This document shows, one piece after another, positions 37,544 to 46,018 of a stretch of DNA of 64,000 nt (positions within the stretch are counted from its first letter, which is position 1; the number at the start of each line of letters is the position of its first letter). Location: the IMG/VR virus record IMGVR_UViG_3300025652_000043, positions 19,042 through 83,041 of that record; one strand, 5' to 3'. Source of the stretch: a virus. A model generated the notes under the pieces. It had not been told where the DNA came from and made no database searches. It saw only the letters and a list, made by a program, of their open reading frames with translations. The translations under genes and the position numbers were made by a program.

Positions 37544-38263
37544 TCAAGGTATTTTAAATAAATAAATTCTAACTCCTACTCTAACATCCCATCGTAATGC
37601 TTTCATTTCATTACCAAAGTTATCAAATTTTTCTGCTGTAAATACATTAGTATTTGCTATAAGAGTGGCATAACTATTTAAATGATATCCAAATGTAAGA
37701 TTAGTACCAATAGATAAATTTGTCTCTGGTCCAAAATAACTATTATCTCTACTATATGGTCTTGAATCTACTCTGTTAATAACAGATAATTCTATACCAA
37801 TAGAAGTTTCAAATAAATGGTTAATAATATTAGGTTTATAATCTATACCTAAATATGTATATTTTTGATATTCAATTTCTTTTAGGTATTCATATCCAGC
37901 CCATATATTTACATCTAAATTAGGAATTGTAACACCAAATATAAATTCAGGATTAAATACTCCTCCTTCTCCATGTGGTCCTTCAATTACCATTTTCATA
38001 TCTACTGCTCCAGATACAAAGAATGTTGGTACTCTTTCATGTTTTAACTGTGCTTGTACATTAAAAGAGAATGCAAGAAATAAAATTAGTAATTTAATTA
38101 TTTTAGCTCTTTTGGCATATCTTATAAGATTCTTTATCTCATTTTCTTCCATATAAATTACTTTATTTTCATGGTGATTTACTGCTAGACATATTCTGTA
38201 CCCTTCATCATGAATGTACACACCATCTCCAAGGTGTTCAGGTTTTAATAATTCTTCTGCCAT
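37544..38263 (-). CDS. Outer-membrane beta-barrel-like protein with an internal signal peptide (possible fusion of two genes)
   Basis: After ~55 aa: KLLILFLAFSFNVQA/Q signal-peptide-like segment, amphipathic beta strands, C-terminal WDVRVGVRIYLF. Confidence 0.6.
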   Translation of the reverse strand: MAEELLKPEHLGDGVYIHDEGYRICLAVNHHENKVIYMEENEIKNLIRYAKRAKIIKLLILFLAFSFNVQAQLKHERVPTFFVSGAVDMKMVIEGPHGEGGVFNPEFIFGVTIPNLDVNIWAGYEYLKEIEYQKYTYLGIDYKPNIINHLFETSIGIELSVINRVDSRPYSRDNSYFGPETNLSIGTNLTFGYHLNSYATLIANTNVFTAEKFDNFGNEMKALRWDVRVGVRIYLFKIP

Positions 38264-38291
38264 TGTTTTTTGTTTTTAATTAATTAATATA

Positions 38292-38355
38292 ACCCTCTTT
38301 CTTATTAGCTGTATCCCTTTTAAGTTCAACATTAAAGGCTAATAAGAGTAGGGTC
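38292..38355 (-). other. Conserved long hairpin with internal loop, copy 1
   Basis: accct-ctt-tcttattagc ... gctaataaga-gt-agggt (+ strand); homologous to 39082-39181. Confidence 0.7.
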
Positions 38356-38638
38356 ACGTAGTTGCTATTCATTACTAGTTCATTTGTATGAACCTTAACT
38401 ACTTAACATACTACTAGGATTCCTCCAAACTTTGTTTATAGGTTGCATTCAACCACCAGGAATATTATTGAGAGCTTCCTGAAGTTTTTTCTCTCTAGTT
38501 TACCCTGTCAATTCAGGATTAGTATCTTTATGTGAATATTACTCAGGTTCCAACCACTTAGGTAACCAATCAATAGATTGATAGCCCTACTGAGCTAGTA
38601 AGTGTCATGTCTATTCTAAATTCACAAAGGTTCAATGT

Positions 38639-38992
38639 TTAGCCATTATTTTTAATTCCTTTTAATAAAGTAGCACCTGTAATATTTAATTTATATCTTC
38701 TAATATCACTAGGATAACCTTTGAATGTTATATCAACCAAAGGTGTCCATCTACTACTCCAGACACAACCATCTTTATCAGTATCTTTTATCCAATTATA
38801 TATTTCTATACACTCTTCAGCATCTTGTTGGTGCTCAGGGTCTTTTAATTGTCTGGTTAAGTGGTTCATTAATTTTCCCATATTTTCTATTTTATTAAAA
38901 ACTCTTTGCCCAAATTTCAGTAGGATATTGATTTGGCAAGGATGAAAGTCCTCTCTTGTACCCATAAGCACCAACACATCTACAATAAACAC
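38639..38992 (-). CDS. Hypothetical protein (start may be MGKLMNHL near 38881)
   Basis: ORF track; N-terminal part doubtful. Confidence 0.5.
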   Translation of the reverse strand: MFIVDVLVLMGTREDFHPCQINILLKFGQRVFNKIENMGKLMNHLTRQLKDPEHQQDAEECIEIYNWIKDTDKDGCVWSSRWTPLVDITFKGYPSDIRRYKLNITGATLLKGIKNNG

Positions 38993-39081
38993 AACTGCTG
39001 ATACAGTTTGTATAATATTGTAAGAGCATTTATAGTCTTACATTATATCGTTTATCTTCAAATCAAAGAGTTTAATTATTG

Positions 39082-39181
39082 GACCCTTGTATCTCATTAG
39101 TTTAGTGCACAAAATAATTGGCTATTGCTATTTCAAAAGCTTAGTGCAAAAGTTGAGGCTATCACTAATGAGAGTAGGGTC
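39082..39181 (-). other. Conserved long hairpin with internal loop, copy 2
   Basis: gaccct-tgta-tctcattagt ... actaatgaga-gt-agggtc (+ strand), with compensatory changes relative to copy 1. Confidence 0.7.
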
Positions 39182-39317
39182 ACTATTATTGAAGTAATTA
39201 TACTAAAAATCTAAAAGGCTTTGTGTCTCGTTTCACTCTACCTTTTAGATTTAATACTCATGACTAATAAACTAACCAAACCAAATTTAAACATGAGCAT
39301 ATAACAAATATAATTAA

Positions 39318-39578
39318 TTAATCAATATAATTTGATGCATTCTCTAAAACATACCATTGTTTAGGTCTACCATCATCATATTTAAAAGCTTTCCATTCTC
39401 TTTCATCAAATGCATATCCTGCTGCTGCAAAATGTCCATTATCTACTACTACTACCATTCCAGGTAGGAATTTCTCATCTGTCACTTTTACTGCTCCTGC
39501 AGCTTCTAAATTGTGACATTTTGATGCAAATGAAGCACCAATATGTACTCCATTAATAACATTAATATACTTTCCCAT
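39318..39578 (-). CDS. Hypothetical early protein
   Basis: 86 aa, globular composition (VVVVDNGHFAAAGYAFD). Confidence 0.7.
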   Translation of the reverse strand: MGKYINVINGVHIGASFASKCHNLEAAGAVKVTDEKFLPGMVVVVDNGHFAAAGYAFDEREWKAFKYDDGRPKQWYVLENASNYID

Positions 39579-39580
39579 TT

Positions 39581-39895
39581 TTATTTGGTTTTAAGCTTAA
39601 ACTTTTGATGAAATTCATGAGACTCTCTCACAAACATTAGTCCGTTTCTTTTATATGCCACCATGGTGCTATCATCTTCACATCCATTTGTTGCATTAAT
39701 TACTTGAAGATTAACAAGAGTGTATTCATCTCCTGTCTTCTCATGTATATATTTTACCATTTCTTTTTGGTTTTGCAATAAGGATATTTTATTCTTTTTA
39801 TTAATATTTCTCCTTACTTGTGCTTTAAACATTAATAATATTAATATGACTACTAATGTTGACATCACAATGTTTACTATTTTACTTGTATCCAT
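39581..39895 (-). CDS. Membrane-anchored protein with a small beta domain (DUF1653-like)
   Basis: N-terminal TM helix; Y.H.KTG..Y...NAT...VAY...FVRE..EF..KF pattern. Confidence 0.55.
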   Translation of the reverse strand: MDTSKIVNIVMSTLVVILILLMFKAQVRRNINKKNKISLLQNQKEMVKYIHEKTGDEYTLVNLQVINATNGCEDDSTMVAYKRNGLMFVRESHEFHQKFKLKTK

Positions 39896-40003
39896 TACTA
39901 TTTGGTTTTATTATTAAAGAACAATATGATTATTAAAATCCATATCATCATAAGATAATCCCATATATTAAAAAAACTATCTGCATGCATAATTTAGCTA
40001 TAT

Positions 40004-40231
40004 TTAATTGTTATCAAAATCATCTTCTAAGGCAGATTCAGGGAACATTTTATCCCAATCTTCTTTGGTATTTCCTGTCATTATGAACTCCCTTTGTTCT
40101 GCATTTAAATTAGGGAATACATCTTGAATACATTTGACTCCTTTAGCATACTCATATAATTGAGCTTGAGTTACTGGTAAGTCCATTACATTGGCTTTCC
40201 CCGTTATAGGGGATACTTTACTTACTTTCAT
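40004..40231 (-). CDS. Small phage protein
   Basis: SPITGK...IQDVFPNLNAEQREFIMTG...WDKMF resembles a small phage protein family; not verified. Confidence 0.7.
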   Translation of the reverse strand: MKVSKVSPITGKANVMDLPVTQAQLYEYAKGVKCIQDVFPNLNAEQREFIMTGNTKEDWDKMFPESALEDDFDNN

Positions 40232-40429
40232 TTGATTAAAATTTAACAGTTATTATTTGGATTTGTGCTTGAGAACTTGTAATATTGATATCTCAATATC
40301 ACTTTGTTGGGCTACTAACTATGTTTTAGACCACAAGGGTCTAAAAGTCTTTTGAAGGTGCAGGAAACTTTGCTTTATAAAAGCTAAATTTAGAGTAAAA
40401 AAAAAGAATTAGTTAGGGTAAAATAATAA

Positions 40430-40464
40430 TAAGAGTAAGTACAGTTATTTGTACTTACTCTTAT
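40430..40464 (-). terminator. Intrinsic terminator
   Basis: taagagtaagtac-agttattt-gtacttactctta. Confidence 0.7.
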
Positions 40465-40479
40465 GTATTATAGAGGAAA

Positions 40480-41097
40480 CTAGTTTCCTACTAATGCTTG
40501 ACCTGCAACTACATTTTCTCCTGTCATTTCTGATTGGATAACTTGTGAAGCATAGAAATCATCTGCTACAGAGTTTCTATTGTCAACATCTTCTTTTGCA
40601 ACCATTGAAAAGAATACTGATCTATACTGAGGCTTATTGTTATCATCTAAGATAAGCTGACCTTCCTTTGCATGATTTTCACCATATCTCACAACTTGTG
40701 AGTCTGCAAATTCATCCATTGTTCTTAGTCCTTCTTGTATAGCATAAGCTTGGTTAGAAGTTAAGATTGGATGATTAGACATTATTCTATATAAACATGA
40801 AGTAGAAGGAATTTTCCCTATTACGTCATCTATTGATGCTACTGCAAAAGGAACATCAATCCAACATACTCTGTTTTCTTCATTTGTGAACTCTTGTTCA
40901 GCAAATCCGAAATCAGCAAGTGCAAATGGGTTATCTTGCAAATCATTCTTGATTTGTTTAGATGGGTAATAACTGACAGTTTTAATAACTTGTCTCAATT
41001 GGGCAGTTTTAGTGCCTTCTTTTTGGTACTCTCCTACATAAAGTTTGTCAACACTAATAGGTGTTGCATTTGTAGTTTTTCTAATTGAATTTTCCAT
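40480..41097 (-). CDS. Hypothetical early protein
   Basis: 205 aa, flanked by an early promoter motif (41333) and a terminator. Confidence 0.75.
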   Translation of the reverse strand: MENSIRKTTNATPISVDKLYVGEYQKEGTKTAQLRQVIKTVSYYPSKQIKNDLQDNPFALADFGFAEQEFTNEENRVCWIDVPFAVASIDDVIGKIPSTSCLYRIMSNHPILTSNQAYAIQEGLRTMDEFADSQVVRYGENHAKEGQLILDDNNKPQYRSVFFSMVAKEDVDNRNSVADDFYASQVIQSEMTGENVVAGQALVGN

Positions 41098-41370
41098 GGT
41101 CTTTGTTTTAGATGGAATTAATAAAAATGTGTTTTGGTCTCTAGTTTTACAAGTGAGAAGCTTGGCATATTAGGCTATGTTACAAAATGTATTTGAATTT
41201 TGGTATTGCTAAATATAGTGGTTATTTGGTGACTGTGTTCTATTGCACACATTATCAGCCTGTTAGCCTTAATACTTGAAGTAATACTTTAACCAATTAC
41301 ATTCTACTTAACAGCTTAACTTTTACTGCTTGAATTAGTGAGGGTATTGCATTGGGAAAAACAAATTGAT

Positions 41371-41600
41371 TAAAAAACCACTCCTATTTAGTTATTCAAC
41401 TAATATAAGAGTGGTCTGAGTCATTTTTCCATTTTTATTTAATAGGTACAAAGAAAGCTACCAATAAACTCAATTCTATTTACACACATCAGGATGTTAA
41501 ATAGTATGGTAGTAAACCAAATCCCTAACAAGCTATGTAGCCTGATCTGAATTAAATACATATATGCAAGGACTACATTAAGTTAGTACTTTGCCTTGCT
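41371..41600 (-). ncRNA. Candidate structured small RNA (alternatively a 40-aa ORF, 41439-41561)
   Basis: Own promoter motif (41602) and terminator (41372-41415); 5' stem GCAAGG/CCUUGC; nested hairpin 41458-41512; contains the reverse complement of the early-gene leader. Confidence 0.5.
41372..41415 (-). terminator. Intrinsic terminator
   Basis: accactc...gagtggt stem followed by a U tract on the - strand. Confidence 0.7.
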
Positions 41601-41703
41601 TAAATTAGTGAGGGTTTTGAACTGGGAGTTAATAAATAAATAATCCTTTATACCTTTAATAGAGTATAAGTTGGGGTATTGAATAAAAAATAAAATAGAA
41701 AAG

Positions 41704-41735
41704 AAACAAGATGTCTAATTAAAGACACCTTGTTT
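41704..41735 (-). terminator. Intrinsic terminator
   Basis: aaacaagatgtc-taattaaa-gacaccttgttt. Confidence 0.65.
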
Positions 41736-41738
41736 ATT

Positions 41739-42047
41739 TTAAAGCTCTTGTTCATACTTAGCAAGAGCTACTTTATCTATTGATTCTTCTGATGCAAATA
41801 AAACATTATGTACTTGCATAGATGATTTAATATCTTTAGTAATCTTGTTTATTAATACTTCAAATGTATTAATATGGTTTTCCAAAAGAATAACTCTTGA
41901 CTTTTTGTGTGATGGTGTGTTTACCTCCATCTCCACAAATGCCATAGTTAATTCATCCCATTGGTCTCTGATTGCTATTAATTCTTGAGTTGACAAGTCA
42001 ACTGTTTTGCCTACAATGGCATCTGCTCTTCTAAGTTTTAAGTCCAT
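41739..42047 (-). CDS. Early hypothetical protein (helical)
   Basis: 102 aa in a promoter-leader-terminator cassette. Confidence 0.75.
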   Translation of the reverse strand: MDLKLRRADAIVGKTVDLSTQELIAIRDQWDELTMAFVEMEVNTPSHKKSRVILLENHINTFEVLINKITKDIKSSMQVHNVLFASEESIDKVALAKYEQEL

Positions 42048-42118
42048 ATTTATATGTATTTATGAATGACAATGTTGTCTATAATTAGTGGGGGTCTTGA
42101 ATTGAGATTAAAAGAAAA

Positions 42119-42150
42119 AGAATCCAGGTACATTGCTGTACCCAGATTCT
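42119..42150 (-). terminator. Intrinsic terminator
   Basis: agaatccaggtac-attgct-gtacccagattct with A tract to the left. Confidence 0.65.
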
Positions 42151-42156
42151 AACATG

Positions 42157-42411
42157 CTAAAACTCTGCTACTGTATTAGAGTCTTTGATGTTTATCATAC
42201 ATGCTTCCATGTAATCCCCATCCTCTACTAGAAATGCTATTTCAGCATTTATATCAAGGTCTCCTTGAGCTTTGTAGGTTTTCCCACTTGCTCCTACTAC
42301 GAAGAACTTACCATTTTTAGGGTTTTTCTTCAACTTCATGCTTGGCTCATTAGCCAATGATTTGAACTCACTAATTGTTAGGAATTCAATGTTACCTGAT
42401 GTATTTTCCAT
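42157..42411 (-). CDS. Early hypothetical protein (small beta-rich)
   Basis: 84 aa in a cassette. Confidence 0.75.
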   Translation of the reverse strand: MENTSGNIEFLTISEFKSLANEPSMKLKKNPKNGKFFVVGASGKTYKAQGDLDINAEIAFLVEDGDYMEACMINIKDSNTVAEF

Positions 42412-42551
42412 AATATATGTATTTAGACGACTTTTAGTTTATATCGTCATAAACTAGTAAGGGTTTTGAATTGGGAAATGAAGAAAAAATAAACAATATA
42501 CCTCCACTACTACACTATATTATTATCAACTAATAACCTTATAAAGGTTTA

Positions 42552-42597
42552 AAAAATAACCCAAGTGTATCTCTACACTCAGGTTATTAGTTACTAC
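42552..42597 (-). terminator. Intrinsic terminator, near-duplicate of 43086-43131
   Basis: aataacccaagtgta-tctc-tacactcaggttatt-agttactac. Confidence 0.75.
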
Positions 42598-43010
42598 ATT
42601 TTGTCTATGACCTTAGAGGCTTTATGAGATATAGCTTTGTCCTTGAACATCTCTCTCTTCTCATCAACAGACAACAAGTCTTCACACTCATAGTACAGTT
42701 CTCTTTCCTTAGCAAGGTCATTCATTAAGTTTATAATGACAGACTGATGCTTATAAGCTTTGATAAACTCTGCCAAGTCTTTATCACAAGACTCTATAAG
42801 GTCTTCACTTTCCAATAGTTTAGCACCTACTAATCTAGATTGTAAGATACTAATAAGGAAAACAGATTGACTATCACTAACTGTTTGACCAAAGTCAAGT
42901 CTAGTGTTACCAACATTGAATACTGTTCTGAGTTCAACAGCTCTAGCTTCTTGTAGATTAACATTGATAGTGTCTACACTCAATTTCAACTCAATAAATA
43001 ATTCTAACAT
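42594..43010 (-). CDS. Early hypothetical protein
   Basis: 138 aa in a cassette. Confidence 0.75.
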   Translation of the reverse strand: MLELFIELKLSVDTINVNLQEARAVELRTVFNVGNTRLDFGQTVSDSQSVFLISILQSRLVGAKLLESEDLIESCDKDLAEFIKAYKHQSVIINLMNDLAKERELYYECEDLLSVDEKREMFKDKAISHKASKVIDKM

Positions 43011-43085
43011 AATACATGTATTTAAGATAGTAAATTCAGCTTACTATCTCAAACTAGTCTGGGTATTGAAATATGTAAAAAACAT

Positions 43086-43131
43086 AAAAATAACCTAAGT
43101 ATATCTCTATACTTAGGTTATTAGTTACTAC
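43086..43131 (-). terminator. Intrinsic terminator, near-duplicate of 42552-42597
   Basis: aataacctaagtata-tctc-tatacttaggttatt-agttactac. Confidence 0.8.
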
Positions 43132-43487
43132 TTTTCAATATCAAAGCTCTTATGAACTTTGTTTAAAGTCTTCTTCATACCTATAGTAGGTATAATTGCA
43201 AAGACAACACCTGAAGAGTAGAATGTCAACATGTCTTTTTCAGGTGTACCATGCATACACTTAGGATAGAGACCAATACCTGAAGTAGAAGTATGTCCAT
43301 CTTTCTCTTCAAGATGTACTACCATAGAATATCCTTCCTGATTCTCCATCCACTCTATGTCAGTAGATATGCCAACTACAGTTTCACCATAGTTATCTCC
43401 TCCAAATAGGAAAGCAGAGATGACTAGTTTCTCTAAATCAGAATAGTAAGTTGCTGTTTCCTTGTTAATGTCAATAAGATTCTTCAT
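43128..43487 (-). CDS. Early hypothetical protein
   Basis: 119 aa in a cassette. Confidence 0.75.
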   Translation of the reverse strand: MKNLIDINKETATYYSDLEKLVISAFLFGGDNYGETVVGISTDIEWMENQEGYSMVVHLEEKDGHTSTSGIGLYPKCMHGTPEKDMLTFYSSGVVFAIIPTIGMKKTLNKVHKSFDIEK

Positions 43488-43562
43488 AATATATGTATTT
43501 AAGATAGCTTTTAGATTATACTATCATAAACTAGTGAAGGTATTGAAATATGTAAAAAAGAA

Positions 43563-43588
43563 AAGAGTAAGCCAGAAGCCTACTCTTG
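43563..43588 (-). terminator. Intrinsic terminator
   Basis: aagagtaagc-cagaa-gcctactctt with A tract to the left. Confidence 0.65.
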
Positions 43589-43593
43589 TTCTC

Positions 43594-43917
43594 TTAGATA
43601 CCATGTGTTGTGTAACATGTATCCATCATCTCATTTAATGTCCACTCTACTTCATGTTGAAGTTCTTCTTCAGGTGTATAGTCTTCATCAGGATATTCCA
43701 CTTCTGCTAGAGTTTCATAAGACTCTCCAGTTTCATGGTCTTTCCAAGTTAAGACATACTGGTCTTCACTTATTCTATTAACAGTGATAGAACAACATCC
43801 TCTCTTACTTTGTAAGATGTAATGGTCATTTGATGGTTTGCTTAGGAGAGTCAGTCCAACTAGGACTGCAACAACTAAGACTAGTACGGGCAATATATAT
43901 TTGTCTTTCATATTCAT
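43594..43917 (-). CDS. Early membrane-anchored protein, probably leaderless
   Basis: N-terminal TM helix and acidic C-terminus; the promoter motif abuts the ATG. Confidence 0.7.
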   Translation of the reverse strand: MNMKDKYILPVLVLVVAVLVGLTLLSKPSNDHYILQSKRGCCSITVNRISEDQYVLTWKDHETGESYETLAEVEYPDEDYTPEEELQHEVEWTLNEMMDTCYTTHGI

Positions 43918-43981
43918 AAATTAGTTAAGGTATTGAGTGATAGTTAAAGGGAGGTGATACTATACCACCCCCCTATTGGTA

Positions 43982-44284
43982 TTATGTACAGTTATGTACC
44001 CAATACTTATGTCCACATATAGGACATTGATGATACTCCAACCAAGCATAGTATGGAGTGCTATCTAAACCAAGTAGTACTGTCTCAGTTCTATGAATAG
44101 CTTCCATCATCTCAGGTACAGGAGCATCACATTGTACACAATGAGTATGAGCATTCACCTCAATGTTTTCTATCTTGTCTGTACTACAGTCAACAAGATC
44201 TCTCCAATCTCTACTGATATGGTCTATAGCATGTATAGTACCATCTATACTCCATATAAGAGTATAACTTCTTCTTGTGTTCAT
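43982..44284 (-). CDS. Early zinc-ribbon protein
   Basis: HCVQCD...QCPICG. Confidence 0.72.
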   Translation of the reverse strand: MNTRRSYTLIWSIDGTIHAIDHISRDWRDLVDCSTDKIENIEVNAHTHCVQCDAPVPEMMEAIHRTETVLLGLDSTPYYAWLEYHQCPICGHKYWVHNCT

Positions 44285-44359
44285 TACACATATGTATTTA
44301 ATATGGCTCTCACTTGTGGGCAGAGAGCCTACTCCCTTACTTAGTCAAGGTGTTGTCAC

Positions 44360-44587
44360 CTAGAATGGCAGGTCATCATACAATTCCCTGTCATCTAGAT
44401 TACAATCATCCTCTACATCATACCAGTCCTCACATTCAATGTCTTCTGGTATATCATTCCCTATGTAGTAATAGTCTACATAGTGATACACATCAGATAG
44501 ACACTCTCCTGTTGAGAAAGTCTGACCATGATAAGTGTCACACTCCTTGGTGTCACACATAGATTGATAGATAAATACTAGATCCAT
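44360..44587 (-). CDS. First early gene: small, highly acidic Cys/Tyr-rich protein ending in DDLPF
   Basis: 75 aa, Asp/Glu-dominated; follows the outermost early promoter. Confidence 0.7.
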   Translation of the reverse strand: MDLVFIYQSMCDTKECDTYHGQTFSTGECLSDVYHYVDYYYIGNDIPEDIECEDWYDVEDDCNLDDRELYDDLPF

Positions 44588-44772
44588 GTCTCTATAGGTT
44601 AATACTCTCCACCATAATATATATTCATGGCTGAGAATACTTGGTTATCTCCCAATTCAAGGGGGGAGTTTCCCTTTCCTAAAACTAGTGGGGGTGTTGT
44701 TATAATAGGCATACATATTCCATAACCCTACAAAAATTTTTTTCTAAATAATTTTTAGATATTTCACTTAAT

Positions 44773-44805
44773 ACTTAAATTGTATTAATATTTTTCTTAA
44801 CTTTG
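44773..44805 (+). promoter_or_regulatory. Candidate late promoter (ACTTAAATTRTATTAATATT plus a TAnnTTTG -7 box)
   Basis: 19/20 identity with 53281-53300; TAACTTTG at 44798-44805 matches the Bacteroidota -7 consensus. Confidence 0.6.
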
Positions 44806-44809
44806 ATTT

Positions 44810-45649
44810 ATGATGACACCAGAAAAACAAAAAAGAGAATTAGACCGTTGTAAAAATGGTCATAAGGATATGACAGGAGAAGAGTACTTTTTCTATAATT
44901 ATTTTAAGATAGGTGGACAGTTGCCTAATCCTAGAACATATACCAAAGAAAGGTTCAAAAAACATAAGGAAGCTATTGAAGCAGATAGAATTTTATGGGA
45001 CACTAAGGTAAGGAGAAATAGAATTCATAGTGGTAGACTAGCAACAACAATGAAAGCAAGAGCTGAATTTCTAGCTAAGTTTCCATTGACCCCAGAAGAA
45101 GCATTTACCACTAAATCTTGGTTTGAGAAGGAAGTAGATAATAAGAGTAAAGAGTTTTGGGAGACAGTTAAGGTATCTCTTAGTAAAGAGGAACTTTTAA
45201 ATGGTGGAAAACCATTATCATTTCTACCTAATAAGTTGACACAAGCACAGGTAGATAATTTTATTAAACAGTGGAAAGATGCTGTACCAATTTGGAAGGA
45301 CAATTTAGTAGGTCCTCCTATTGTAACAGGTACAGCAGGGGAAATACCAAATTTTGAGGATAGAAGGAATCATCCTGATTTTAAAGGAAAAGAGTTTTGT
45401 GAAAGATGTGAAATGTATCCTCAATATAAAGATGGGTTTTGTGCATCCTGTATACATTCAGGAGAAGTTTCTATAGTTGAGAAAATGAAACCTCTGCAGT
45501 ATTTGAATAACTTTAATATGGCTATGTCTCAGATTGAAGGACTTAGTAGTAATGAAGAAAAAATAGAAGCTTATAAAGATGTTTGGATAAAAATATCTAA
45601 ACTGTTAGCTAAAGAAGGAATTGACTTTAAACCGAAATTTAAGAATTAA
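44810..45649 (+). CDS. Mosaic protein containing terminase-large-subunit-like peptide segments
   Basis: ELDRCKNGHKDMTGEEYFFYNYFKI, FPLTPEEAF and IVTGTAG resemble segments of the TerL at 48753; also a CxxC...CxxC finger. Confidence 0.6.
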   Translation: MMTPEKQKRELDRCKNGHKDMTGEEYFFYNYFKIGGQLPNPRTYTKERFKKHKEAIEADRILWDTKVRRNRIHSGRLATTMKARAEFLAKFPLTPEEAFTTKSWFEKEVDNKSKEFWETVKVSLSKEELLNGGKPLSFLPNKLTQAQVDNFIKQWKDAVPIWKDNLVGPPIVTGTAGEIPNFEDRRNHPDFKGKEFCERCEMYPQYKDGFCASCIHSGEVSIVEKMKPLQYLNNFNMAMSQIEGLSSNEEKIEAYKDVWIKISKLLAKEGIDFKPKFKN

Positions 45650-45661
45650 AAGAAAAAAAGT

Positions 45662-46018
45662 ATGGCAACAATTAAAAAGAAATTAACATTACCCAAGAAT
45701 GAATATTACTCTAAACATTTGAGTATAGTGAATGTATTTCTTCCAGTGAAGATGACACCTAAAGAAATTGAAGTGTTAGCTTGTTTTATGTCTTTGGAAG
45801 GGGATATTGCAGAACAAAGATTTGGTACTTCAGCTAGGAAACTAGTTATGAGTACTATGAATCTTAAACCAGGAGGTTTAGGTAATTATTTTAAGTCTCT
45901 TAAACAAAAGAAGTTTCTTAAAGAGTTAGGACATAATAAGTTTGAAATATTATCTATGTTATATCCAACTCCAGAATATCAGAACTATATGTTTCAACTT
46001 ATAAAGGTAGAAGATTAG
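45662..46018 (+). CDS. Putative winged-HTH DNA-binding protein
   Basis: MTPKEIEVLACF...ARKLVMSTMNLKPGGLGNYFKSLKQKKFL, a MarR-like pattern. Confidence 0.6.
   Translation: MATIKKKLTLPKNEYYSKHLSIVNVFLPVKMTPKEIEVLACFMSLEGDIAEQRFGTSARKLVMSTMNLKPGGLGNYFKSLKQKKFLKELGHNKFEILSMLYPTPEYQNYMFQLIKVED

What the first reader, a model, noticed from the sequence alone, without database searches (positions are those of the whole stretch)
41371..41627. Candidate small RNA carrying the antisense of the leader shared by five early mRNAs
Seen: five early genes have UUAAAUACAUAUAU-like leaders just before AUG (+ strand copies at 42051, 42413, 43012, 43489, 44288). The unit driven by the 41602 promoter has the same promoter and 5' hairpin layout but carries the element inverted (41552-41565), so its RNA reads AUAUAUGUAUUUAA. 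That is 14/14 complementary to the 43487 leader, 13 contiguous nt to 42411, 12 to 42047, 14 with one G:U to 43010 and 18 with two G:U to 44284. The rest folds into a nested hairpin and ends in a terminator. Inference: one trans-acting sRNA could jointly shut off or tune translation of the early cassettes. Caveats: the core is quasi-palindromic and AT-rich, and a 40-codon ORF starts inside the element.
Basis: partly seen in the sequence, partly recalled or inferred. Interest (0 to 1): 0.8.

Follow-up and report, generated by a model that had tools for sequence, protein, structure and literature searches.

The report
Candidate anti-leader RNA in crAss-like phage
A freshwater crAss-like phage has a small, probably non-coding gene whose RNA would carry the exact mirror image of the short sequence that precedes the start codons of five of its early genes, so it may switch those genes down together by base pairing, although no transcript has been seen.

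Summary
Five minus-strand early cassettes carry TTAAATACATATAT-like leaders just before ATG. One exact inverted copy lies at 41552-41565, inside a promoter-hairpin-terminator unit.

The antisense-sRNA reading is partly supported.

For it:
- The unit has the best match to the clade's promoter consensus and a strong terminator.
- The element is largely unpaired.
- A roughly 86%-identical strain breaks the 40-codon ORF with a frameshift and mostly non-synonymous changes, while its terminator is unchanged.
- A distant relative (L004) has a different shared leader and one inverted copy of that leader, in a hairpin loop.

Against it:
- No transcript of the unit was seen.
- The 14-bp A/U duplex is weak, and unrelated start regions pair equally well with other parts of the RNA.
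- Shuffled versions reach 12 or more contiguous pairs in 12 of 2000 trials.
- Conservation of the element itself could not be checked.

Closest known: the P1/P7 c4 antisense RNA, and the start-associated sequences of Cluster K mycobacteriophages. Earlier follow-ups in this scan reported similar "anti-leader" candidates in at least eight other phage genomes (unchecked here).

Confidence is about 0.45. I class it as a new variant of a known kind.

The parts
41602..41621 (-). Phage promoter motif TTCAAAACCCTCACTAATTT that drives the unit
   Evidence: 0 mismatches to the 14-nt core AACCCTCACTAATT; it scores 26.0 bits, the best of this phage's own sites, against a matrix built from 38 distinct sites in 14 relatives' loci. 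The RNA polymerase that reads it and the start site are inferred, not shown.
41566..41599 (-). 5' hairpin (GCAAGG ... CCUUGC) at the predicted 5' end of the RNA
   Evidence: it forms in the local fold of the first 72 nt. The full-length minimum-energy fold instead pairs this region with downstream sequence, so it is plausible but not robust. The five protein cassettes have a hairpin at the same place.
41552..41565 (-). Anti-leader: the RNA reads AUAUAUGUAUUUAA, the exact complement of the 43489-43502 leader (pairing extends to 41551-41569 for the 44284 leader)
   Evidence: Opening energy 2.43 kcal/mol; per-base unpaired probability 0.22-0.90.
41439..41561 (-). 40-codon ORF (hydrophobic) that starts inside the anti-leader; probably not a conserved gene
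   Evidence: One search lists it; in the variant strain of run X8 there is a 1-nt deletion at 41483 (codon 27) that gives a stop straight after, and 10 substitutions in codons 26-41 (8 non-synonymous, 1 synonymous, 1 stop lost); no homologue, and the peptide itself is not in the protein collection. The AUG lies 5 nt after the hairpin, with U at -3. Codons 1-15 are not covered by the variant and codons 16-25 are unchanged, so a peptide of about 26 aa is not excluded.
41418..41551 (-). Body of the RNA between the anti-leader and the terminator; weakly constrained at its 3' half
   Evidence: the variant contig shows 13 substitutions and 1 deletion in 41422-41486, and none in 41487-41516. No robust structure.
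41372..41417 (-). Intrinsic terminator: long hairpin with an inner stem, then a U-run
   Evidence: -20.6 kcal/mol, z -5.31, 0 of 200 shuffles as good; no change in 41373-41415 in the variant strain, although both flanks are 14-21% diverged. The simple scan misses it because its loop limit is 8.
42050..42063 (-). Target leader 1 (before the ATG of the 102-aa ORF, 41739-42047)
   Evidence: 12 contiguous pairs.
42413..42426 (-). Target leader 2 (before the ATG of the 84-aa ORF, 42157-42411)
   Evidence: 13 contiguous pairs; helix -10.6 kcal/mol.
43012..43025 (-). Target leader 3 (before the ATG of the 138-aa ORF, 42594-43010)
   Evidence: 14 pairs with one G:U; -11.6 kcal/mol.
43489..43502 (-). 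Target leader 4 (before the ATG of the 119-aa ORF, 43128-43487)
   Evidence: 14 of 14 Watson-Crick pairs; -11.6 kcal/mol at 37 C and -16.3 at 20 C.
44288..44301 (-). Target leader 5 (before the ATG of the 100-aa ORF, 43982-44284)
   Evidence: 19 contiguous pairs including two G:U; -19.2 kcal/mol, the best of 94 start regions.
41332..41351 (-). Next promoter (context): it drives the 205-aa gene through a 5' UTR of about 234 nt
   Evidence: 23.2 bits. RNA-library contigs of two studies cover 40458-41301 and 40504-41307 and stop there, while a DNA contig runs on. This is a weak hint of a 5' end just downstream of this promoter.

Best explanation
Positions 41372-41621 (minus strand) form a self-contained and most likely non-coding transcription unit in the early-gene array of an uncultured freshwater crAss-like phage. 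The order is: consensus phage promoter, 5' hairpin, a 14-nt 'anti-leader', about 130 nt of poorly constrained sequence, and a strong intrinsic terminator.

The predicted RNA is about 230 nt. Its exposed anti-leader pairs with positions about -15 to -2 of five early mRNAs, all of which carry the same A/U-rich leader just after their own 5' hairpins. Ribosomes of Bacteroidota do not use Shine-Dalgarno pairing and depend on an unstructured leader. Turning this stretch into a duplex should therefore lower initiation, and perhaps expose the mRNA to double-strand-specific RNases, on all five cassettes at once. A structured, terminator-capped RNA would outlast the mRNAs, so repression would grow as infection proceeds.

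Shown: the sequence elements, their non-random arrangement, the loss of the reading frame in a natural variant, and a parallel leader/anti-leader pair in a relative.

Inferred: that the unit is transcribed, where the RNA starts, that pairing occurs, and the direction of its effect.
For: 1. One inverted copy sits among five forward leader copies. No other copy with up to 1 mismatch occurs in the 64-kb window, and only these six exact 11-mers occur in the 83-kb record. Outside the leaders' own opposite strands, it is the only site complementary to all five leaders.
2. The inverted copy is on the transcribed strand. It lies directly after a 5' hairpin, in the place the leader occupies in the protein cassettes.
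3. The unit has the best promoter score of the phage against a matrix built only from relatives: 26.0 bits against 23.6 to 6.7 for the other seven. It also has a very strong terminator.
4. The element is accessible, with an opening cost of 2.43 kcal/mol.
5. The variant strain in DNA run X8 carries a frameshift and a substitution pattern of 8 non-synonymous to 1 synonymous in the only sizeable ORF. Its terminator hairpin has no change.
6. There is no ORF of 25 aa or more on the other strand, no protein homologue and no Rfam family.
7. Relative L004 (63% identity in the neighbouring 205-aa protein) has a different shared leader with 4 forward copies, 1 reverse copy and 0 control copies in 32.9 kb. 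The reverse copy, 16 nt long, lies in the loop of a strong hairpin. It matches distant leaders (16 nt) better than the adjacent one (11 nt).
8. ORF-less units driven by the same promoter occur in relatives L253, L309 and L213. Abundant, stable early non-coding RNAs are reported for the crAss-like phage phi14:2 (passages of 10.1101/2020.03.07.982082).
9. [quoted passage not shown]
Against: - No transcript of the unit has been seen.
- The duplexes are A/U-rich and weak: -11.6 kcal/mol or less for four of the five targets at 37 C. Five unrelated start regions among the 94 tested reach -11.7 to -13.8 with other parts of the RNA.
- 12 of 2000 dinucleotide shuffles reach 12 or more contiguous pairs.
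- The core CATATATG is palindromic, so about half of the match comes free if the unit simply keeps a leader-like CAUAUAU before its own AUG.
- Whether the element is conserved is unknown, because the variant contig ends at 41516.
- The leader and its inverse were not found in any fetched relative of this phage. The comparative support therefore rests on one other phage.
- The RNA would be made from the same promoter class as its targets, so a timing mechanism has to be assumed.
- No RNA chaperone is known for the unknown host.
Confidence: 0.45

Rival explanations
1. Gene-less or decayed cassette. The unit is a remnant of the modular early array. Its leader was flipped by recombination at the quasi-palindromic leader core. 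An RNA may be made, but it regulates nothing.
For: - The core CATATATG is a perfect palindrome, and one leader copy (43012) holds a 12-nt palindrome.
- Cassettes share promoter, hairpin and terminator junctions, which favours shuffling.
- The 3' half of the body is 21% diverged in the variant strain, as unconstrained DNA would be.
- The pairing energies are no better than chance matches elsewhere in the RNA.
Against: - Only the roughly 14-nt element is inverted, in place between the hairpin and the body. It is not a larger segment.
- The unit keeps the best promoter in the phage and an invariant terminator, which is unexpected for a dead cassette.
- A second phage with an unrelated, non-palindromic leader also has exactly one inverted copy, displayed in a hairpin loop.
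Confidence: 0.2
2. The repeated element is a protein-binding site: a DNA operator about 25-36 nt downstream of the promoters, or a site for a RegA-like translational repressor on RNA. The copy at 41552 is just one more site in the other orientation.
For: - The element is quasi-palindromic.
- It lies at a similar distance from the promoter in all units: 19-26 nt in four cassettes and 36 nt in this one.
- Protein-based shut-off of many early mRNAs, one repressor to many targets, is known for T4 RegA (recalled; the review PMC3014915 was seen only in the listing).
Against: - An RNA-binding protein would not recognise the complement.
- In L004 the shared leaders lie inside operons, far from promoters. 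They are not palindromic, and the inverted copy is in an RNA hairpin loop. This points to an RNA-level role.
- No candidate regulator was identified: the early proteins have no known families.
Confidence: 0.13
3. The unit is a small protein gene. The AUG inside the element starts a hydrophobic membrane peptide of 26-40 aa, and the match to the leaders is a by-product of a shared start context.
For: - A 40-codon ORF with a membrane-helix-like core exists.
- CAUAUAU precedes or overlaps the AUG, as in the real cassettes.
- Codons 16-25 are unchanged in the variant, which would still encode 26 aa.
- Relatives have short early ORFs of 25-60 aa after the same promoter.
Against: - The variant has a frameshift at codon 27, and its codons 26-41 carry 8 non-synonymous changes, 1 synonymous change and 1 lost stop. 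By codon position the changes are 3, 5 and 2.
- Only 5 free nt separate the hairpin from the AUG, and -3 is U. The real cassettes have 17 or more free nt, and four of the five have A at -3 (abstract of PMC6847099).
- There is no homologue, and the peptide is absent from the protein collection although the neighbouring 205-aa protein is present on 5 contigs.
- The shared start context explains AUAUAUG but not the following UAUUUAA.
Confidence: 0.12
4. Cis-acting element. The anti-leader acts only within read-through transcripts, folding back on a leader of the same RNA molecule. An example is the 42050 leader, 485 nt upstream. In L004 it would be the leader immediately downstream.
For: In L004 the loop can pair with the adjacent downstream leader over 11 nt, as a pseudoknot.
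Against: - In this phage a terminator (41704-41735) and a promoter separate the nearest upstream leader from the element.
- The unit's own terminator is strong, and RNA contigs of the next gene do not extend into it.
- The L004 loop matches distant leaders better than the adjacent one.
Confidence: 0.05

Closest known systems
c4 antisense RNA of phages P1 and P7 (immI operon c4-icd-ant)
   Same: A phage-encoded RNA that is not transcribed opposite its target. It blocks translation by pairing of short exposed segments with the region around the ribosome-binding site of a phage mRNA (passages of the review PMC12197685). The L004 version, with its anti-leader in a hairpin loop upstream of genes in the same operon, resembles c4 even more closely.
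   Different: - There is no sequence or structure match to any Rfam family.
- This unit has its own promoter and terminator, rather than being cut from the target's transcript.
- It would have five targets that share one leader, rather than one target.
- The phage is apparently virulent, the host is SD-less Bacteroidota, and the role would be control of early genes rather than immunity.
Start-associated sequences (SAS/ESAS) of Cluster K mycobacteriophages (Pope et al. 2011, PMC3203893; passages read)
   Same: - A short asymmetric repeat lies 3-7 bp before the start codons of a subset of non-structural genes.
- All copies face one way, except for a single copy in the opposite orientation in several genomes.
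- About half of the copies are preceded by an inverted repeat, like the 5' hairpin here.
- The authors left open whether an RNA or a protein binds the repeat.
   Different: - The sequence is unrelated (GGGATAGGAGCCC) and includes an SD-like core.
- There are 11-19 copies per genome.
- The hairpin arms there have a consensus, whereas here each hairpin is different.
- In the passages I saw, the oppositely oriented copy was not interpreted as an RNA gene.
sar RNA of phage P22 and OOP RNA of lambda
   Same: Small phage RNAs that repress a phage mRNA by pairing near the start codon.
   Different: They are transcribed from the strand opposite their single target (recalled, for sar), so the complementarity is automatic. 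Here the RNA is encoded 0.5-2.7 kb away from its targets, and the match must be maintained by selection.
T4 RegA translational repressor
   Same: A one-to-many shut-off of early phage mRNAs through an A/U-rich site at the start codon (recalled; the review PMC3014915 was seen only in a search listing).
   Different: RegA is a protein. Here the proposed repressor is an RNA.

Membership tests
C4 antisense RNA family (P1/P7 c4; an Rfam family, accession recalled as RF01695) | Match to the family's sequence and structure model | tested here: not met
   Rfam scan of 38000-46000 at E up to 1 gave only a chance miRNA hit elsewhere. The whole window at gathering scores gave 0 matches.
C4 antisense RNA family (P1/P7 c4; an Rfam family, accession recalled as RF01695) | Short segments complementary to the ribosome-binding region of a phage mRNA encoded elsewhere | tested here: met
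   12-19 contiguous pairs with positions about -22 to -2 of five early mRNAs.
C4 antisense RNA family (P1/P7 c4; an Rfam family, accession recalled as RF01695) | RNA processed out of the same transcript that carries the target | tested here: not met
   The unit has its own promoter motif and terminator. In relative L004 the anti-leader is inside an operon.
Trans-encoded base-pairing small RNA (generic) | Own promoter and Rho-independent terminator around a short unit with no conserved ORF | tested here: met
   Promoter motif 26.0 bits. Terminator z -5.3. The ORF is frameshifted in the variant strain, but its first 25 codons were not assessed.
Trans-encoded base-pairing small RNA (generic) | Single-stranded seed | tested here: met
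   Opening energy 2.43 kcal/mol for the 14 nt. The element is unpaired in the local fold.
Trans-encoded base-pairing small RNA (generic) | Seed conserved, or co-varying with its targets, in relatives | tested here: inconclusive
   The variant contig ends at 41516, before the seed. No close relative was retrievable. One distant relative (L004) has its own matched leader/anti-leader pair.
Trans-encoded base-pairing small RNA (generic) | Detected as a discrete transcript that affects its targets | not testable with these tools
   Only assembled contigs of two metatranscriptomes could be laid. None lies on the unit, and that proves nothing.
Start-associated sequences of Cluster K mycobacteriophages | The 13-bp consensus GGGATAGGAGCCC | tested here: not met
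   The leader here is TTAAATACATATAT. The consensus is taken from PMC3203893.
Start-associated sequences of Cluster K mycobacteriophages | Repeat a few bp before the start codons of non-structural genes, one orientation, plus a single opposite copy | tested here: met
   Five copies ending 1-5 nt before ATG, all on the minus strand, and one on the + strand.
Small membrane peptide / type I toxin-like gene | Reading frame kept under purifying selection | tested here: not met
   In codons 26-41 of the variant: a 1-nt deletion, 8 non-synonymous changes, 1 synonymous change and 1 lost stop. Codons 1-25 are not informative.

The most novel reading that the evidence does not exclude
Leader/anti-leader pairs may be a recurring, co-evolving regulatory device of phages, here in crAss-like phages of SD-less Bacteroidota. 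One small RNA, or one hairpin loop inside an early operon, would hold the complement of a leader shared by a whole class of early mRNAs. It would set or end their translation by pairing: an RNA counterpart of T4 RegA. On this reading, the leader changes between phage lineages and the anti-leader follows it.
Probability: 0.3. Interest if true: 0.8.

Novelty: new variant of a known kind. Interest (0 to 1): 0.6.

Why it matters
How crAss-like phages switch their early genes off is unknown. The one transcriptome study I read found abundant early non-coding RNAs of unknown function and no early promoter motif. A small RNA that pairs with a leader shared by several early mRNAs would give a simple, testable mechanism for class-wide post-transcriptional control. 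This would be in hosts whose ribosomes ignore Shine-Dalgarno sequences and are especially sensitive to leader structure.

It would also suggest an explanation for the single oppositely oriented copy that accompanies start-associated repeats in Cluster K mycobacteriophages. The seed and the five natural targets are short and defined, so reporter tests with compensatory mutations are straightforward.

Tried and rejected
**Close relatives.** None could be found.
- blastn of 41100-42100 against 50,697 phage records gave no match.
- Single-protein scans of IMG/VR with the 205-aa and the 84-aa proteins found no relative.
- Profile scans gave 11 IMG/VR loci and 5 metagenome loci at 39-66% identity. 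None has the TAAATACATAT leader.
In the screen none had more than one promoter-like site, so I took them for chance hits.
- The exact terminator hairpin found nothing.
- A scan for the L004 loop gave 117 stretches. A local blastn found no further relative of the L004 region apart from L005, which starts downstream of the hairpin.

**Generality of the device.** I looked at 8 loci and 15, 23 in all.
- Only this phage and L004 have a leader word shared by three or more ORFs together with an inverted copy.
- L190 has two short shared words and no inverted copy.
- The other loci have no shared leader, so the test does not apply to them.

**RNA evidence.** Contigs of the two metatranscriptome runs that I laid (X13, X14) have no piece on 41308-41827. 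The only other pieces are 35-nt fragments at 41828-41862 that run on into unlike sequence, and nothing lies on the target cassettes. I note only that the unit was not assembled where the neighbouring 205-aa gene was, at depth 3.5-5.4.

**Other checks that led nowhere.**
- RNA.duplexfold on full-length sequences gave unrealistic multi-loop duplexes. I replaced it with contiguous-helix energies.
- A global alignment of the unit with the L004 region showed no homology beyond a shared 12-mer at the predicted 5' end.
- An AAATACAT word in the 5' UTR of the 205-aa gene (41194) is within chance: 18 copies in the record.
- The tmRNA idea: relatives FpV4 and phi14:2 have tmRNA-like genes in the equivalent non-coding gap. 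This window has none.
- Sigma-70-like promoter matches are at chance level: 19 found against 21.7 expected.

**Literature.** Searches for an anti-leader RNA in crAss-like phages, or a one-to-many phage sRNA acting on early leaders, found none in the listings I saw. Supplementary files were not consulted. Supplementary file 1 and the supplementary tables of the phi14:2 preprint may hold promoter and transcript data that bear on this.
Full report
**What the DNA is.**
- The window is bases 19042-83041 of an 83,041-bp IMG/VR virus record.
- It encodes a Crassvirales major capsid protein (Pfam Crass_capsid, E 2.5e-134) and giant proteins of 2750 and 1656 aa. It is therefore a crAss-like phage.
- G+C content is 30.5%.
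- DNA runs that hold it are freshwater and sediment metagenomes.
- The nearest cultured relatives, judged by the 205-aa protein next to the finding, are Flavobacterium psychrophilum phages of the FpV4 group, at 46% identity.

**The early array.** Between 41332 and about 44700, all on the minus strand, lie eight copies of a promoter-like motif (consensus here TTCAAAACCCTCACTAATTT).
- Its 14-nt core AACCCTCACTAATT recurs in related phages. I collected 38 distinct sites from 14 relatives' loci, with consensus TCAAAACCCTCACTAATTTnnAGnATTA.
- Most units here run: promoter, short 5' hairpin of unit-specific sequence, an unpaired leader TTAAATACATATAT(T), ATG, a small ORF, and a terminator.
- Terminator-like sites number 11, against 1.7 +/- 1.4 in shuffles.

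**Check of the observation.**
- With up to one mismatch the 14-mer occurs five times in the window: four leaders on the minus strand and the exact copy on the + strand at 41552-41565. Shuffles gave 0.30 +/- 0.59, and 0 of 100 reached five.
- The fifth leader (42050) has two mismatches.
- In the whole record the 11-mer TAAATACATRT occurs five times on the minus strand and once on the + strand.
- Complementarity between the predicted RNA and the leaders is 12, 13, 14 (one G:U), 14 and 19 (two G:U) contiguous pairs.
- Genome-wide, seven sites have 10 or more Watson-Crick pairs with three or more leaders. Five are the trivial opposite strands of the leaders. One is an 11-nt match outside the window. 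The seventh is this element, which is the only non-trivial one that matches all five.
- The control is sobering. 12 of 2000 dinucleotide shuffles of the RNA reach 12 or more pairs, and 22 of 2000 reach 10 or more pairs with three leaders. This is because both partners are rich in AT repeats.

**Anatomy of the unit.**
- The promoter at 41602-41621 is the only one in this phage with no mismatch to the clade core. It scores highest, 26.0 bits, against the matrix built from relatives alone.
- Taking the RNA to start at 41601 (an inference), the first 72 nt fold locally into the GCAAGG/CCUUGC hairpin. The element stays fully unpaired.
- In the full-length ensemble the 14 nt cost 2.43 kcal/mol to open.
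- The terminator (41372-41417) is very strong: -20.6 kcal/mol, z -5.3.
- The middle of the RNA has no convincing structure. The full-length z is -2.66, and the first 72 nt give z -0.21.
- No Rfam family matches.

**Coding or not.**
- The only ORF of 25 aa or more within the unit is the 40-codon frame that starts in the element. A 38-codon TTG frame (41648-41764) lies upstream of the promoter, over the terminator region of the neighbouring gene.
- It has no PHROG hit and no homologue. It is not even present in the protein collection that holds the neighbouring protein on five contigs.
- Its AUG lies 5 nt after the hairpin and has U at -3. The real cassettes leave 17 or more unpaired nt, and four of the five have A at -3. 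In Flavobacterium johnsoniae, initiation depends on low structure and on A at -3 (abstract of PMC6847099).
- A natural experiment helps. DNA run X8 contains a second strain, about 86% identical, at depth about 16. Its contigs cover 41242-41393 and about 41386-41516.
- Within the covered part of the ORF (codons 16-41) this strain has a 1-nt deletion at codon 27 that creates a stop straight after. It also has ten substitutions: eight non-synonymous, one synonymous and one that removes the stop codon. By codon position they number 3, 5 and 2.
- That is not how a conserved protein evolves.
- Caveats: this rests on one assembled contig. Codons 1-15 are not covered and codons 16-25 are unchanged, so a peptide of about 26 aa cannot be excluded.
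- The same strain has no change in the 43 nt of the terminator hairpin, although both flanks are 14-21% diverged. This argues that the unit's 3' end is functional.

**Expression.**
- Contigs from two metatranscriptome runs of different studies cover the 205-aa gene and its long 5' UTR, up to 41301 and 41307. They stop there with no loose end, while a DNA contig continues across.
- No RNA contig lies on the unit itself, which proves nothing either way.

**Strength of pairing.**
- As simple helices, the duplexes are -19.2 kcal/mol for the 44284 leader, the best of 94 start regions in the record. They are -11.6 for 43010 and 43487 and -10.6 for 42411. The 42047 helix is below the top 14.
- Five unrelated start regions reach -11.7 to -13.8 with other parts of the RNA.
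- At 20 C the 14-mer duplex is -16.3.
- Energetics alone therefore do not single out the targets. What does is that the same exposed segment meets the same position, about -15 to -2, in five mRNAs. That follows directly from the repeated element.

**Comparative evidence.**
- No relative close enough to align the unit could be fetched.
- At the level of the system, however, there is a parallel. Locus L004 (an IMG/VR contig; 63% identity in the 205-aa protein) has its own shared leader, TTTAAAACCAAGAAAA, directly before four start codons.
- Its 32.9-kb record has four forward copies of the 13-mer, exactly one reverse copy, and none of the reversed-word control.
- The reverse copy (16 nt, L004:3976-3991) is on the same strand as the genes. 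It sits in the apical loop of a strong hairpin between two early ORFs.
- It matches the distant leaders over 16 nt, but the leader next to it over only 11 nt.
- So two phages with different leader words each keep one matched inverse on the transcribed strand.
- Of the other 21 loci examined, none has a leader word shared by three or more ORFs except L190, where the sharing is weak and there is no inverse. The sample is therefore two out of, at most, three applicable cases.
- Relatives also show ORF-less units behind the same promoter (L253, L309, L213).
- In phi14:2, early intergenic RNAs are more abundant than most mRNAs and persist late (passages).

**What it most likely is.** I read the unit as a non-coding RNA gene whose product pairs with the shared early leader and lowers translation of the five cassettes. 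Confidence is about 0.45. The sequence facts, the variant data and the L004 parallel are shown. Transcription, pairing and effect are inferred. The rivals are:
- a functionless, gene-less cassette with a flipped leader (0.2);
- a protein-binding site in the other orientation (0.13);
- a small hydrophobic peptide gene (0.12);
- a purely cis-acting fold-back (0.05).

**Relation to known systems.**
- It would work like the c4 RNA of P1/P7: exposed antisense segments acting on the ribosome-binding region of a phage mRNA encoded elsewhere. It is not a member of that family, because there is no Rfam match, it is its own transcription unit, and it has many targets.
- The leader set itself, with one oppositely oriented copy, closely parallels the start-associated sequences of Cluster K mycobacteriophages. 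[quoted passage not shown]
- Functionally it would be an RNA analogue of T4 RegA (recalled).
- Earlier follow-ups in this scan reported similar anti-leader candidates in at least eight other phage genomes, including Bacteroidota phages. Those notes are unchecked by me and are not independent evidence. They do mean that this is one more instance of a recurring pattern rather than a singular oddity.
- My literature searches found no published description of such an RNA in crAss-like phages.

**Verdict.** I class it as a new variant of a known kind, with interest 0.6.

Noticed in passing
L003:5021-5435 (Flavobacterium phage FpV4, KT876724.1) and L432:4031-4502 (Cellulophaga phage phi14:2, NC_021806.1): Both phages have a tmRNA-like gene in a long unannotated early gap. 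FpV4 scores 58.2 bits (gathering score 47, E 1.3e-21). phi14:2 scores 46 bits, just under the gathering score (E 3.6e-16). ARAGORN missed the FpV4 one. The phi14:2 match lies in the g004-g006 intergenic region, which the 2020 preprint reports as an abundant, stable early non-coding RNA of unknown function. This window has no such gene.
   Followed up: partly
L253:6064-7000 (IMGVR_UViG_3300026877_000099): Four to five tandem ORF-poor units of 195-270 nt. Each starts with the clade promoter and ends with an inverted copy of the first 20 nt or so after the promoter, so the RNA ends could pair. Each is filled with GGTATTAC-like repeats. This may be an array of non-coding RNAs.
   Followed up: no
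window 41332-44700 (minus strand) and 14 relatives' loci: The early promoter motif is conserved far beyond this phage: 38 distinct sites, consensus TCAAAACCCTCACTAATTTnnAGnATTA. It was not found within 3 mismatches in the first 14 kb of phi14:2, where the preprint also saw no common early motif.
   Followed up: partly
window 41098-41331 (minus strand): The conserved 205-aa gene (phrog_16309, function unknown) has a 5' UTR of about 234 nt that is present in RNA-library contigs of two studies. In relatives, a basic ORF of about 55 aa follows the equivalent promoter (L200:5099, L250:7694, FpV4 L003:3673, probably L013:4637). That ORF is missing here.
   Followed up: no
window 41242-41516, run X8: A second strain, about 86% identical, coexists with the reference strain in one freshwater sample. 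Its intergenic DNA is 14-21% diverged, yet the terminator hairpin at 41373-41415 is unchanged. A further X8 contig fits only 41669-41706 and runs on into unlike sequence on both sides, so the variant appears to be arranged differently upstream of the unit.
   Followed up: partly
L003:5375-5387 (FpV4): A 13-nt complement of the leader word shared by the ORFs at L003:2452 and 9200 lies inside the tmRNA-like gene. Given the many leader words tested in A/T-rich DNA, this may be chance.
   Followed up: no
L309:9617-10400, L200:1218-1576, L292:2926-3341: A conserved early protein of about 90 aa (M..I.E.K.QLG.S.LNLNT...W..HWDN..RVAV) follows the clade promoter in several relatives. In L309 it is present as two diverged tandem copies.
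   Followed up: no
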